64,000 bases of DNA, from NCBI RefSeq assembly GCF_000027125.1, contig NC_017626.1; one strand, written 5' to 3'. A program made the position numbers. Positions 6,001 through 9,000 of this stretch are shown in pieces. Numbering within the stretch: the stretch's first letter is position 1; every line of letters begins with the position of its first letter. This DNA is from Escherichia coli 042 (GTDB taxonomy: Bacteria > Pseudomonadota > Gammaproteobacteria > Enterobacterales > Enterobacteriaceae).

Positions 6001-9000
6001 ATCTTGCCGAACTCCCGGCACCAGAAATAACGCAGGCTGGTTGCATGCACACGCTGATTGGCACATCTTTTTTTCCGCTGGTAAGCCTGAATTTTGGCTT
6101 TCAGGGATGCAAAAAAACGAGAAATCACCGCTGAATCCGGATCGGGATCCATGATGGTGACAGGCATATACTCAGGAAACCGTAAATCCACCCGGATTAA
6201 CGAGACGGCACGGTGTTGCACCAGGGCACTGTTGAGAATACTTTCAAAACGGGATAACCAGTAATCATTGTGTATTGGTTGATTCATGATGAGAGATCTC
6301 CGTTGATTTGGATTGACTTCACATCATTAATCGCCGCGGTAAAACTTTACGGCATCCCACCAATGAGCAACGCCAATAGCTCCTGATTAAAACGGAATGA
6401 ATCGTCCCGTAACGAAAAGATAATCCTGCACACGACAGCAAAACGTAAAACAACGGCATGAATGAGCTAAATGTCTAAAGAAAAACTGCCTTTTCACATT
6501 ATTTTTCAGCGAGTGATCATACCAGCATCCCTAACATACGAAATCGCATCGTGATCGATCGCTGATTCGCCGAACAACTGATCGAATACACCTGAATCTG
6601 CACTAACATCCTGATGGGTAACGGAAGACTAAAAAACCAGTGTTCTATTGATTGCACGGAATGCCTGTGCGCTGGCCTGACCAGTAAGCACAATTCTACG
6701 AGTAGTAAGATATCTACTCCAAAACCATGCGCAGTAGCCACCATATGTTGCCAGGGTGAAAAATAAGCTCAGAACTATAGGGGAGTAATTCCCGTTAATG
6801 TCATCGCCGTACCTCAATCAGCTCACAAACTGGCTGAAACGTTAAGCTGAGGCCTTTATTCTTCAGATGTATTTTCCGGTTTACCTGTAAATTATCTTCT
6901 GATATTTATCACATTAGTAATTGTGCTGATTATCTACATACTTCAAGGTCTGAAATATGAAGCTAACAGAAGAAAGTCTGAATCTAGTCATTGACATCCT
7001 GAATGATTTGATCTGTGAAGGAAAAATGCTGAACGATGTGGAGCGCAGATCTCTGCTCAATGCAGTTATGGCAATTACAGCGGTAAAAGAACGTTCTGTC
7101 GTATCTGTATCATCCCGAAAAGAGCAAAGTAAGAAGGAGAAGAAGGAAAGAGAGATCGATCCTCGTTTCCCAAATGCTGGTGTGGCATGGAATGAGGCAG
7201 ACGAGAATTTATTGCGAGATGTTCTGGAGGATGTACCGGACGATGAAATTGGTAAACACCTTTTCTGGCTGGCAGAGAAACTAGGGCGAACCCCGTACAG
7301 TGTAGCCTGTAAAGTCAGACAAATTAAGAAATTACCTGCAGAATGGAAGGATCAATTTCGTAAAATCTCTGACAGGATCCGTAGTTCTGGAATGTCAGTC
7401 AGTGAATATCTACAACGCCAGGGACTGTTAAGCCCAGAGTCAGGGGAAGAAAACAATCCTGTCAGTCATAACAACAATGTAGCTTAATCCTGAAGAAGAT
7501 GAACAGTTTATACTCTTTAAACTGTTCCCTTAATTTTAGAAAAACAGTTTGTGTAAGTGCATGCTCCAACATTCTGAAGGCATTATTTCTTACAATACAT
7601 CATAATCATTGGCAGATCCTCATCTGAATCAAAACACCACAACCAATCATCACACTTTTTCTGAAAAGAGCCTTATGATGAAGATAATCACCTTACGCTG
7701 AGAAAAAACACTAGGGCCAGTTAATCACCTTATCAATCTCGCCGTTACAAAATCATCCATAAGCCATTTAACAGTGTTATCGCAAACTCACAGTAAATCG
7801 CATCAGGTTACCTCAATCGGATTTGAGTTAATTCACTGGGCTTTACGTAAAGATACTTTTCTCAGGTTAACGACTAAAACACGAAAACTCAGAAAAGGTT
7901 AAACACAGGTTCAGTAAAATCGAATATCATCTTGATTGCTTAAACAGGACAGAGGGTTTTGTAGTGAGGTTAACTGATTTTAGCGATCGTAAAAAAAGGA
8001 CTAACAAATTTACTAAACTGGATGTGTATCAGACAAAGCAATGTGTGTAGCAATGCTTAATGAAAATACTTGTATGATTGTCTATGAAAGTACGTGTATA
8101 ACACTTACTGAAATGCTTAGTAAAAATACGTGTATATAGTATCATACCGACATTCTCAACTCTTCCAAACATCCATGCAGACTGAATGTTGGTTTCAGTT
8201 TTTCACGGCCAGCATGGATCTTTACTGGTCAAAAAACAGACATGTTTACTCTGGAATTATTTTTCTGATTCCGTCTTCAGAACAACAAAAACTCGTGATA
8301 ACTCTACAACAAACTATCGTAATTGGCTTCTGTAACCCCGTCACTTTTCCTAAGAAATGTGCCCCCATATAATGCGGGAGAGATAAGTCATCGTATACAG
8401 GAAACACTGCCAATCATAACATAACGTCATTCAATAATTTTTATCCATAATCAGATGAGCATATCATGATTATTGAATATTATGATATATAACTCATATG
8501 AATGTGTTATTATCTGTAAGCGTTAAGCATCACATTGCATAACCATACTAAGCTGGATAATCATCAACGTTTTTATATGTAACTCATTGAAATTAATTAT
8601 ATGTTTTTTGTGGATAATTAATATGTAATGTGAAATTAATATTTTCACATCATGAACGCCATTTAAAATTACCATCCTGAATATCATATGACAATATATT
8701 TTCACTAAAGCATGAATTGTATATATCTATTAACTCTGGAAAATTATCAGGATTCACCTTCAAATTCACTTGAATGTTACGTTTAATTTCACCCAGCAGT
8801 TCTTCATGTGTGGATTTTATTATCCCTTTCTCATAATCGATAAATACACACATGTTCTTTATGAATTCAAAACCTTTTCCTGTATACAGTTTAATGAATG
8901 CCACCAGAGCAAACATTTCAAGATATAGCCATAATGCCACGTTAGTTTTTTGCAAAGTATAAAAAATTGAATTCGCCACTCTTTTACTTATTGCTCTTTT

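What the first reader, a model, noticed from the sequence alone, without database searches (positions are those of the whole stretch)
7538..8649. 1.1 kb AT-rich ORF-poor spacer with direct repeats: possible ncRNA or regulatory region
Only one weak GTG-start ORF is predicted in more than 1 kb. At 8052..8136 there are direct repeats of about 25 bp (AATGCTTA(A/G)T(G/A)AAAATAC(T/G)TGTAT) with a third TACGTGTAT core between them at about 30 bp spacing, resembling iterons or operator arrays. The spacer separates two convergent cargo genes. A non-coding RNA partner or degraded gene could be hidden here.
Basis: seen in the sequence. Interest (0 to 1): 0.5.

Follow-up and report, generated by a model that had tools for sequence, protein, structure and literature searches.

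The report
Island control/origin region with iterons
The 1.1 kb "spacer" is mostly a conserved, never-annotated stretch of protein-binding DNA that belongs to the backbone of a genomic island found in about a third of E. coli genomes; it most likely serves as the binding and acting site of the island's own replication-initiator-like nuclease and overlaps a promoter, and it is neither an RNA gene nor a dead gene.

Summary
Window 7488-8649 is AT-rich (34% GC), has no ORF over 80 aa, and carries a direct-repeat array at 8052-8135. The spacer has three parts:
- 7488-7617: the 3' flank of an optional 176-aa gene insertion.
- 7618-8266: a conserved backbone element.
- 8267-8649: the non-coding 3' flank of a variable 407-aa cargo gene.

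The backbone element occurs in about 1,840-1,865 of 5,426 complete E. coli genomes and is never annotated. It always lies between a Gp2/YfjJ-family gene and a YfjP-type GTPase operon. It consists of:
- a repeat array that varies in copy number (19-223 bp);
- a near-invariant core, TATAGT-N6/7-CCGACATT (8135-8154);
- a tail motif, ACTCTGGAATTAT (8248-8260), after which cargo is inserted.

The same layout recurs upstream of Gp2 homologues (35-42% identical) in Providencia, Brenneria and a metagenome lineage, and more loosely in Morganellaceae and Jinshanibacter. The repeats differ by lineage, but the core and tail are shared.

Gp2 has invariant HUH and Y motifs and a parvovirus-NS1/AAV-Rep-like fold. 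A helicase gene often sits beside it.

Nothing supports an RNA gene or pseudogene: no Rfam match, no conserved RNA or ssDNA structure, no conserved ORF.

Best reading (about 0.45): a Rep-type origin/operator overlapping a rightward promoter. Main rival: a purely transcriptional control region.

The parts
5556..6287 (-). Gp2/YfjJ-family gene (243 aa), a putative HUH Rep-like nuclease and candidate binder of the repeats
6288..6464 (.). Conserved region immediately upstream of the Gp2 gene, presumably its proximal promoter region
   Evidence: 79-86% identical in seven of the eight loci L002-L008, which otherwise lose homology until 7618. The eighth, L005, carries the same 176-aa insertion as the window and matches continuously.
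6465..7617 (+). Optional insertion module: 176-aa ORF (6957-7487) plus a perfect 10-bp-stem hairpin at 7501-7527. It includes the left 80 bp of the reported spacer.
   Evidence: Present in 28 of 87 loci. Homology breakpoints lie at 6464 and 7618. The hairpin scores as a terminator on both strands.
7618..8266 (.). Conserved non-coding backbone element of about 650 bp, the real feature inside the spacer
   Evidence: Present in 1,838-1,865 of 5,426 complete E. coli genomes at 2,525-2,600 places. No feature is listed under the match in 118 of 120 sampled records. There are 49 unique full copies of 514-731 bp. Short conserved blocks are separated by variable DNA and indels.
8030..8135 (+). Direct-repeat (iteron) array. 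Units at 8056-8075, 8080-8099 and 8116-8135, half unit at 8104-8115, all in the same orientation.
   Evidence: The stretch from the TTTACTAAACTGG block to CCGACATT, which holds the array, measures 19-223 bp in 81 loci, with 35 distinct alleles. One natural deletion removes all internal units (L004).
8135..8159 (+). Near-invariant core: -10-like hexamer TATAGT (8135-8140), a 6-nt spacer, then CCGACATTCTCAA (8147-8159)
   Evidence: The hexamer is TATAGT or TATAAT in 81 of 81 E. coli copies, the spacer is 6 or 7 nt, and CCGACATT follows. The same composite is found in Providencia, Morganellaceae, Brenneria and metagenome L100.
8171..8219 (.). Inverted repeat ATCCATGC / GCATGGAT with a 33-nt loop, partly kept in other alleles
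   Evidence: (I11). It is kept as 5-8 bp in other alleles, with no clean compensatory changes (by eye).
8248..8260 (+). Tail motif ACTCTGGAATTAT. It marks the right end of the conserved element, and cargo begins just after it.
   Evidence: Homology between islands with different cargo stops at 8262-8266. The motif is exact in Providencia and L100, has 1 mismatch in Brenneria, and lies 77-81 nt after the core there.
8267..8649 (-). Non-coding 3' flank of the 407-aa cargo module, with a terminator-like hairpin at 8380-8362 on the minus strand
   Evidence: Found only in islands that carry the 407-aa gene. It is 71-73% identical among them, has indels, and has no conserved ORF.
8650..9873 (-). Variable cargo gene (407 aa, no known domain), one of at least five alternative sequences at this position
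   Evidence: No match in Pfam, NCBIfam, PADLOC or PHROGs. There are five sequence classes after the tail motif in 82 loci: 28, 25, 23, 5 and 1.
9886..10858 (+). Conserved upstream region of about 88 bp, with hairpin CCGGAT..ATCCGG at 9929-9947, followed by the YfjP-family GTPase gene (9974-10858), first backbone gene of the rightward operon
   Evidence: The upstream region is conserved across cargo types. The GTPase lies 2.0-3.2 kb right of the element anchor in all 59 loci that reach it.

Best explanation
The central 650 bp (7618-8266) is the cis-acting control/origin region of the island backbone.

In cargo-free relatives it is simply the divergent intergenic region between two operons: the Gp2(HUH)-AlpA operon and the GTPase / WYL-regulator / anti-restriction / DUF932 / RadC / toxin-antitoxin operon.

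Proposed mechanism:
1. The same-orientation repeats (8030-8135) are iterons bound by a lineage-specific island protein. The most likely binder is the adjacent Rep-like HUH nuclease Gp2.
2. The family-conserved core 12 bp downstream (TATAGT-N6-CCGACAT) is where that protein acts, by strand opening or nicking to initiate replication or transfer of the excised island. A YfjI helicase would assist where it is present.
3. The core also carries the -10 element of a rightward promoter that lacks a -35 element, so binding at the repeats would control that promoter as well.
4. Cargo genes have been inserted just past the tail motif (8248-8260).

What is shown: the conservation, the linkage to Gp2 and the GTPase, the repeat variability, the cross-genus architecture, the HUH motifs and fold of Gp2, and the absence of RNA structure and of coding potential.

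What is inferred: which protein binds the repeats, any nicking or replication, and promoter activity.
For: 1. Strict linkage. In 87 loci the Gp2 gene is always upstream on the minus strand at a fixed distance, and the GTPase is always downstream. The same holds in annotated genomes.

2. Gp2 is an HUH Rep-type enzyme.
- Pfam REP_ORF2-G2P match.
- Invariant RVDL/HYH/YxxK motifs.
- Its frequent neighbour YfjI matches a DNA helicase family at E 6e-43 and 7e-60.
- Such an enzyme needs a DNA target in cis.

3. The architecture matches Rep origins, with specific iterons next to a conserved core.
- Repeat sequences differ between lineages: E. coli; Providencia, 3 copies; L100, 3 copies of 22 nt; Jinshanibacter, 36 bp x 4.4 at 98% matches.
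- The core and tail are shared although Gp2, the GTPase and the HTH regulator are only 35-40% identical.
- The composite core-plus-tail motif was found in at most 2 of 20,000 shuffles per lineage in four lineages.

4. Selective constraint is local. The element as a whole is less conserved (71-87% identity) than third codon positions of the flanking genes (78-97%). The core is nearly invariant.

5. The element is kept regardless of its neighbours. The 176-aa insertion on the left and five cargo classes in either orientation on the right do not affect it. This fits a site that acts on its own.

6. The promoter component. The hexamer is TATAGT or TATAAT in 81 of 81 copies, and TATATT in three other lineages. 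Positions 1, 2 and 6 are kept and position 5 is free. In Providencia the 449-bp intergenic region must contain the rightward promoter.
Against: - No hairpin places the core in a loop, and the single-stranded DNA of the element folds no better than shuffles (z +0.4 on both strands). Many HUH nick sites lie in or beside a hairpin.
- There is no recognisable -35 element, and the consensus scan did not call a plus-strand promoter here.
- Within E. coli, Gp2 alleles do not visibly track repeat or core variants. Gp2 proteins 95-96% identical to the window's sit next to the variant core.
- K-12 CP4-57 has a yfjJ gene without any such element.
- In the window island the helicase partner is absent and IS elements flank the module, so this copy may be inert.
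- No experiment or paper bears on it.
Confidence: 0.45

Rival explanations
1. A purely transcriptional control region. The core is an activator-dependent or repressor-controlled sigma-70 promoter (-10 at 8135-8140, start near 8147) for the rightward operon. The repeats are operator sites for a regulator other than Gp2: the WYL-type HTH protein (11061-11741), AlpA, or a nucleoid protein. No nicking or replication is involved.
For: - The -10-like hexamer is kept in 81 of 81 E. coli copies and across genera in the TAnnnT pattern.
- The element sits in the divergent intergenic region, and the cargo-free Providencia arrangement must hold the promoters within 449 bp.
- The repeats abut the -10 where a -35 element would be.
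- A WYL-HTH regulator is encoded in the operon.
- AlpA is 70% identical across genera, which matches the cross-genus conservation of the core and tail.
Against: - In E. coli the DNA downstream is variable cargo, often on the opposite strand. The promoter would therefore have no constant target, yet the core and tail stay conserved.
- Conservation extends well beyond a -10 hexamer (CCGACAT, and the tail 77-101 nt away).
- There is no -35 element.
- This reading leaves the invariant HUH nuclease encoded next door without a target site.
Confidence: 0.3
2. A small or leader RNA. A transcript of about 100-120 nt runs from about 8147 to the tail motif. It would act in trans or in cis, for example as antisense to cargo or as partner of the ProQ/FinO-like protein encoded in some islands.
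For: - A -10-like hexamer lies upstream, and the first 13 nt (CCGACATTCTCAA) are conserved.
- The core-to-tail length is constant: 116 bp in E. coli and 77-81 nt in four other lineages.
- The window copy folds at -28.5 kcal/mol, z -1.8.
- A ProQ/FinO-family gene is present in some islands.
Against: - There is no Rfam match at E up to 10.
- The consensus folding energy is only -1.1 (plus strand) and -3.8 (minus strand) kcal/mol over 33 unique sequences, z -1.4 and -1.7. No segment of the element folds better.
- No intrinsic terminator follows on the plus strand.
- The hairpins predicted for the window copy use cargo-specific sequence or are not kept in other alleles.
Confidence: 0.08
3. Mostly functionless spacer DNA that hitch-hikes between conserved backbone genes. 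The repeats would be a slippage-prone AT-rich minisatellite, and the conserved blocks would reflect recent common ancestry and recombination.
For: - The element is less conserved than synonymous sites of its neighbours and is full of indels.
- Array length is hypervariable, and one island has lost the whole array.
- The sequence is AT-rich.
Against: - The core and tail motifs persist in genera whose backbone proteins are only 35-40% identical and whose intergenic DNA is otherwise unalignable. The composite motif appeared in at most 2 of 20,000 shuffles.
- Repeat arrays recur at the same position with unrelated sequences.
- The core is nearly invariant among E. coli alleles that differ at 25-30% of other positions.
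Confidence: 0.1
4. A frameshifted remnant of a protein-coding gene.
For: The gap is long and an 80-aa GTG ORF lies at 8130-8372.
Against: - All six frames of the 8122-8296 segment carry stop codons in some allele.
- The same holds for the 8267-8649 segment, where there is no shared ORF.
- Indels are not multiples of three.
- No CDS or pseudogene is listed under the match in 118 of the 120 sampled records, out of about 2,600 places.
Confidence: 0.02

Closest known systems
Double-strand origins of HUH-Rep replicons: the pMV158 dso with its nic and bind loci, the geminivirus common region, and the AAV/parvovirus Rep-binding repeats next to the nick site (from established knowledge of these systems)
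   Same: - An HUH Rep-fold protein is encoded next to the site.
- Same-orientation repeats specific to each lineage lie within about a dozen bp of a sequence conserved across the family.
- The site sits in a divergent intergenic region that also carries a TATA-type promoter element. In geminiviruses and at the AAV p5 promoter, Rep binding there also represses transcription.
   Different: - No stem-loop presents the conserved core.
- The host element is a chromosomal island with an integrase and AlpA, not a plasmid or virus.
- The nuclease and the helicase are separate genes.
- Nicking and replication have never been shown for this protein family.
Iteron origins of phage-inducible chromosomal islands and P4-like satellites: SaPI/PICI ori and P4 ori/crr (from established knowledge)
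   Same: The setting is an integrative island with an AlpA/Vis-type regulator and its own replication initiator and helicase. Short repeats specific to each initiator lie beside an AT-rich segment. The repeat sets vary between island lineages.
   Different: Those initiators are primase-helicase proteins, not HUH nucleases, and their origins lie inside or just downstream of the rep gene. No capsid-redirecting or packaging genes were noted among the annotated neighbours of this module, and the element gave no hit in the phage collection.
oriT regions of conjugative or mobilisable plasmids that lie between divergent operons, with direct-repeat arrays for accessory proteins, such as the R388 oriT-stbA region and RP4 oriT (from established knowledge)
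   Same: The site is a divergent intergenic region next to an operon of anti-restriction, DUF932 and RadC-type genes, which resembles plasmid leading regions. Arrays of direct repeats flank a conserved core.
Operator arrays of Cox/Vis/Xis/AlpA-type winged-helix proteins at phage and satellite promoters, such as P2 Pe-Pc and P4 PLL (from established knowledge)
   Same: Tandem same-orientation AT-rich boxes lie directly upstream of a promoter that lacks a good -35 element. An AlpA gene is part of the adjacent operon.
   Different: The repeat sequences differ completely between lineages while AlpA stays 70% identical. AlpA is therefore a better candidate for the conserved core or tail than for the repeats.

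Membership tests
Known RNA family or structured small RNA | Match to a curated covariance model | tested here: not met
   An Rfam scan of 1-20000 at E up to 1 and of 7450-8700 at E up to 10 gave only far-sub-threshold eukaryotic or archaeal chance hits.
Known RNA family or structured small RNA | Secondary structure conserved across homologues, with covariation | tested here: not met
   RNAalifold on 33 unique tails gave -1.1 (plus strand) and -3.8 (minus strand) kcal/mol, z -1.4 and -1.7. Sliding windows over 49 unique elements never fell below -5.1 kcal/mol.
Known RNA family or structured small RNA | Intrinsic terminator at the 3' end | tested here: not met
   The only terminator-like sites in the spacer are 7501-7527 (both strands) and 8380-8362 (minus strand). 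None follows the core on the plus strand.
Known RNA family or structured small RNA | A discrete transcript | not testable with these tools
   No expression data are available. Text searches found no paper on this locus.
Pseudogene (degraded coding sequence) | Residual reading frame or protein homology shared by homologues | tested here: not met
   Stop codons occur in every frame in some allele. Indels are not multiples of three. No feature is listed under the match in 118 of 120 sampled records out of about 2,600 places. A full translated database search was not possible.
Sigma-70 promoter | -10 hexamer with A2 and T6 | tested here: met
   TATAGT or TATAAT in 81 of 81 E. coli copies. TATATT in Providencia, Brenneria and L100.
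Sigma-70 promoter | -35 hexamer at 16-18 bp, or an extended -10 TG | tested here: not met
   The scan does not call a plus-strand promoter here. By eye, the -35 position reads AATGCT/ATGCTT, and the TG is one base out of register.
Sigma-70 promoter | Mapped transcription start | not testable with these tools
   This needs 5'-RACE or dRNA-seq.
HUH-Rep origin (nic plus bind loci) | Cognate HUH initiator encoded in cis | tested here: met
   [not shown]
HUH-Rep origin (nic plus bind loci) | Direct repeats beside a sequence conserved across the family, with the repeats specific to each lineage | tested here: met
HUH-Rep origin (nic plus bind loci) | Nick sequence presented in or beside a stem-loop | tested here: inconclusive
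   Only 4-bp arms flank the core. The nearest real inverted repeat starts 12 bp after the core's 3' end (8171-8219). ssDNA folding is no better than shuffles.
HUH-Rep origin (nic plus bind loci) | Site-specific nicking and Rep-dependent replication | not testable with these tools
   Needs biochemistry and genetics.
Conjugative oriT with a MOB relaxase | The adjacent nuclease belongs to a relaxase family | tested here: not met
   [not shown]
Type III toxin-antitoxin (ToxI-like repeat array) | Repeat array followed on the same strand by a conserved toxin gene | tested here: not met
   The downstream genes fall into five unrelated cargo classes in either orientation.
Theta-type iteron origin | DnaA boxes next to the iterons | tested here: not met
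   I saw no DnaA box inside 7618-8266, though I ran no systematic scan. The perfect box at 8609-8617 lies in the cargo flank and is not kept in other copies.

The most novel reading that the evidence does not exclude
The element is a functional rolling-circle-type origin, or a nick site for transfer, used by a split Rep made of the Gp2 HUH nuclease and the YfjI helicase. If so, the 'cryptic' CP4-like island backbones in about a third of E. coli genomes, and their relatives in Providencia, Morganellaceae, Brenneria and others, would be self-replicating or self-mobilising once excised. A cargo-insertion hot spot would sit immediately beside the origin.
Probability: 0.3. Interest if true: 0.7.

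Novelty: new member of a known kind. Interest (0 to 1): 0.45.

Why it matters
About a third of complete E. coli genomes carry this unannotated element, often in several copies. It lies next to a hot spot where islands swap cargo of unknown function, and next to a protein family (YagK/YfjJ, 'inovirus Gp2') that has never been characterised.

If the repeats and core are the working site of that HUH nuclease, two things follow. These pathogenicity and fitness islands would have a replication or mobilisation step that has been overlooked. The element would also give a concrete, testable DNA substrate for the enzyme.

Even under the plainer reading, it defines the control region of the island's anti-restriction and toxin-antitoxin operon, and it gives annotators a landmark for the cargo slot.

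Tried and rejected
- **Rfam scans** at permissive thresholds found nothing.
- **Structured sRNA.** Consensus RNA folding of every part of the element on both strands gave negligible energies.
- **Frpo-like single-strand promoter or sso.** ssDNA folding of the whole element gave z +0.4 on both strands.
- **Shared cos/pac site or phage origin.** No phage match was found for the 681-bp query or the 55-bp core query.
- **Plasmid origin.** Only three E. coli plasmids carry the element. The 31.7-kb record I examined is an IncF plasmid with an island fragment, not an excised island.
- **K-12 counterpart.** CP4-57 has yfjJ and yfjP but neither the element nor its motifs.
- **Small conserved ORF** in the 116-bp tail or in 8267-8649: none.
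- **DnaA-box origin** in 8400-8650: the boxes are not conserved.
- **Homology of the conserved stretch upstream of the E. coli GTPase gene to the Providencia leader:** not significant, 714 of 2,000 shuffles scored as well.
- **P. aeruginosa AlpA antiterminator as a model.** That protein is a Q-like factor with residues numbered past 140, unlike the 75-77-aa Phage_AlpA proteins here, so the analogy was dropped.
- **Exact-motif scan of one genome per species.** It found the E. coli-type core only in an Enterobacteriaceae MAG, plus two hits in a Saprospiraceae MAG and Colwellia that showed no other similarity to the window region.
- **Literature searches** for YfjJ, YagK, Inovirus Gp2 and the motif strings gave no characterisation.
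Full report
**What the window is.** The window is identical to the chromosome of E. coli JE86-ST05. The finding lies in the conserved right-hand module of a composite island next to cadC. The gene order there is:
- IS remnants;
- an 'inovirus Gp2 family' gene, 5556-6287 (-);
- a 176-aa hypothetical gene, 6957-7487 (+);
- the gap;
- a 407-aa hypothetical gene, 8650-9873 (-);
- a rightward operon: a YfjP-family GTPase (9974-10858), a WYL-type HTH regulator, DUF905, DUF932, an anti-restriction protein, RadC, DUF987, a YeeU/CbtA toxin-antitoxin pair and DUF4942.

**The observation.** It is correct. No ORF over 80 aa lies in 7488-8649, and GC is 34% against 48% for the window. 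Their motif is confined to this spot in 64 kb and exceeds all shuffles. The unit is about 20 bp, CTTAnTnAAAAnACnTGTAT, with copies at 8056-8075, 8080-8099 and 8116-8135 and a half unit at 8104-8115.

**The spacer is a mosaic.** BLAST against 5,426 complete E. coli genomes finds the gap DNA in 1,862 of them at 2,600 places. No CDS or pseudogene is listed under the match in 118 of the 120 sampled records. Matches end at recurrent breakpoints. Local alignments place these at about 7618 and 8262-8266.
- Left of 7618 lies the tail of an optional module (6465-7617). It holds the 176-aa ORF and a perfect hairpin at 7501-7527, and is present in 28 of 87 loci.
- Right of 8266 lies the non-coding 3' flank of the 407-aa cargo module. 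It is 71-73% identical among such modules and has no shared ORF. It has a terminator-like hairpin on the minus strand at 8380-8362.
- Only 7618-8266 is common to all islands.

**Anatomy of the common element.** I compared 49 unique complete copies of 514-731 bp, drawn from genomes and 72 metagenome contigs. They show short conserved blocks separated by variable DNA and many indels.

Overall the element is less conserved (71-87% identity) than third codon positions of the flanking Gp2 (84-97%) and GTPase (78-93%) genes. Constraint is therefore local.

The stretch that holds the repeat array, from the TTTACTAAACTGG block to CCGACATT, is hypervariable. It measures 19-223 bp and has 35 alleles in 81 loci. 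In one island all internal units have been deleted between two ATGTGTAT repeats.

Directly after the last unit comes a near-invariant core. The hexamer is TATAGT or TATAAT in 81 of 81 copies. A 6- or 7-nt spacer follows, then CCGACATT. A 116-bp tail of constant length ends in ACTCTGGAATTAT. Past that motif the sequence falls into five unrelated classes that track the cargo. Homology resumes about 88 bp upstream of the GTPase start.

**Linkage.** In every locus with enough flank, the Gp2 gene lies upstream on the minus strand at a fixed distance and the GTPase lies 2.0-3.2 kb downstream. The element is absent from:
- phages;
- nearly all plasmids;
- K-12 CP4-57.

In an exact-motif scan of one genome per species, the only other genome with the E. 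coli-type core was an Enterobacteriaceae MAG.

**Not an RNA gene and not a dead gene.**
- Rfam gives nothing.
- Consensus folding energies are negligible on both strands along the whole element.
- The window copy folds only marginally better than shuffles.
- No terminator follows the core.
- Every reading frame is broken in some allele.

**Cross-genus comparison.** Gp2 homologues at 35-42% identity occur in Providencia, Morganellaceae, Brenneria, Jinshanibacter and a metagenomic lineage. All sit in a Gp2-AlpA operon. That operon is divergent from a backbone operon of the same kind: DUF932 in four of the five lineages, with a YfjP-type GTPase, an anti-restriction gene, RadC and CbtA in varying subsets.

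In Providencia the two operons are separated by only 449 bp with no cargo. In that DNA, read in the orientation of the window, the same order appears:
1. A direct-repeat array whose sequence is specific to the lineage: Providencia 3 copies, L100 3 copies of 22 nt, Jinshanibacter 36 bp x 4.4 at 98% matches.
2. The core, TATAnT-N6/7-C(C/A)(G/A)ACA.
3. After 77-81 nt, the tail ACTCTGGA(A/G)TTAT.

The composite core-plus-tail motif appeared in at most 2 of 20,000 shuffles in each of four lineages. The motif was partly defined after seeing the data, and the shuffles preserved only mononucleotide composition. In Jinshanibacter only a loose version is present.

AlpA is 70% identical across these genera. 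Gp2, the GTPase and the HTH regulator are only 35-40% identical. The E. coli element is therefore an expanded version of an ancient divergent control region, with cargo inserted just past the tail motif.

**What Gp2 is.**
- It matches Pfam YagK_YfjJ_C and REP_ORF2-G2P.
- It keeps RVDL, HYH and Y213-x-x-K216 invariant in seven homologues down to 34% identity. In the 21-sequence alignment, RVDL and K216 stay invariant, and H101 and H103 are at least 90% conserved.
- No solved structure is detectable by sequence alone.
- Its frequent neighbour YfjI matches a DNA-helicase family.

This looks like a Rep split into separate nuclease and helicase genes. Such a nuclease needs a DNA site in cis.

**Interpretation.** The best-supported model is a Rep-type origin/operator. 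Lineage-specific iterons would be bound by Gp2. The family-conserved core 12 bp away would be where Gp2 acts. That core overlaps the -10 element of a rightward promoter lacking a -35 element, so occupancy of the repeats would also set transcription. By established knowledge, this is the logic of the pMV158 dso, the geminivirus common region and the AAV Rep-binding elements.

The element persists in E. coli whatever has been inserted on either side. That favours a site that acts on its own.

Weaknesses of this model:
- No stem-loop presents the core.
- Gp2 alleles and repeat variants do not visibly co-vary within E. coli.
- No experiment exists.

I give this model about 0.45. A purely transcriptional control region bound by the WYL regulator or AlpA gets 0.3. 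Hitch-hiking spacer gets 0.1, an unstructured RNA 0.08, and a pseudogene 0.02.

That the centre of the spacer is conserved cis-acting DNA of the island backbone, rather than an RNA gene or a gene remnant, I hold at about 0.85.

**Novelty and interest.** I found no annotation, Rfam family or paper for this element or for the function of YfjJ/YagK proteins. The kind of feature is familiar: an iteron-bearing origin or operator in a divergent intergenic region. I therefore rate it a new member of a known kind, of moderate interest. What raises the interest:
- it is very common in E. coli;
- it sits beside a cargo hot spot;
- it offers a concrete substrate for testing an uncharacterised HUH nuclease family.

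Noticed in passing
window 8267-9973, and the same slot in L002-L016 and L021-L092: A cargo hot spot lies between the tail motif and about 88 bp upstream of the GTPase gene. It holds five unrelated sequence classes in 82 loci (28, 25, 23, 5, 1). The window's 407-aa gene has no match in Pfam, NCBIfam, PADLOC or PHROGs, so it may be an unknown defence or fitness gene.
   Followed up: partly
window 6465-7617: An optional 1.15-kb insertion is present in 28 of 87 loci. It carries a 176-aa ORF (6957-7487) and a perfect 10-bp-stem hairpin (7501-7527). The protein has only weak hits: NikA-like mobilisation protein (E 0.025) and PHROG 'transcriptional regulator, D5-like' (E 0.002).
   Followed up: partly
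[not shown]
   Followed up: yes
window 9929-9947: A GC-rich hairpin, CCGGAT-TAGTGTG-ATCCGG, lies 27 bp upstream of the GTPase start codon. It sits inside a stretch of about 88 bp that is conserved across all cargo types, and may be a regulatory element of the rightward operon.
   Followed up: no
window 8609-8617 and 8441-8449: A perfect DnaA box (TGTGGATAA) and a one-mismatch box (TTATCCATA) lie in inverted orientation in the very AT-rich cargo flank. Neither is conserved in other copies of the same cargo module, so they are probably chance.
   Followed up: yes
L102 4573-4729 (Jinshanibacter): A 36-bp tandem repeat of 4.4 copies at 98% matches lies upstream of a Gp2 homologue, immediately before a CCGACAAT core. 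It is the clearest iteron array in the family.
   Followed up: partly
L094, L096, L099, L100 versus window 8147-8260: The core-to-tail distance is 77-81 nt in four other lineages and 101 nt in E. coli. The difference is about two helical turns, which hints that the two motifs must stay on the same face of the DNA.
   Followed up: no
L004 about 5000-5020 (E. coli UTME-7): A natural variant has all internal repeat units deleted between two ATGTGTAT repeats, yet keeps the core and tail intact. It is a ready-made control for functional tests.
   Followed up: no
L007 190-666 and L014 1-187: Some islands of this family encode a ProQ/FinO-family RNA-binding protein next to the AlpA and Gp2 genes. No partner RNA was identified.
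   Followed up: no
window 11061-11741: The 'helix-turn-helix regulator' of the rightward operon matches WYL-domain regulator profiles in PADLOC (E 2.4e-18). It is a candidate ligand-sensing regulator of the island.
   Followed up: no
L008 633-2237 and L094 6200-7768: YfjI (DUF3987), often encoded beside Gp2 and AlpA, matches a phage DNA-helicase family (PHROG 2373, E 6e-43 and 7e-60). The gene is missing from the window's island, where IS30 and IS600 remnants lie left of Gp2.
   Followed up: partly
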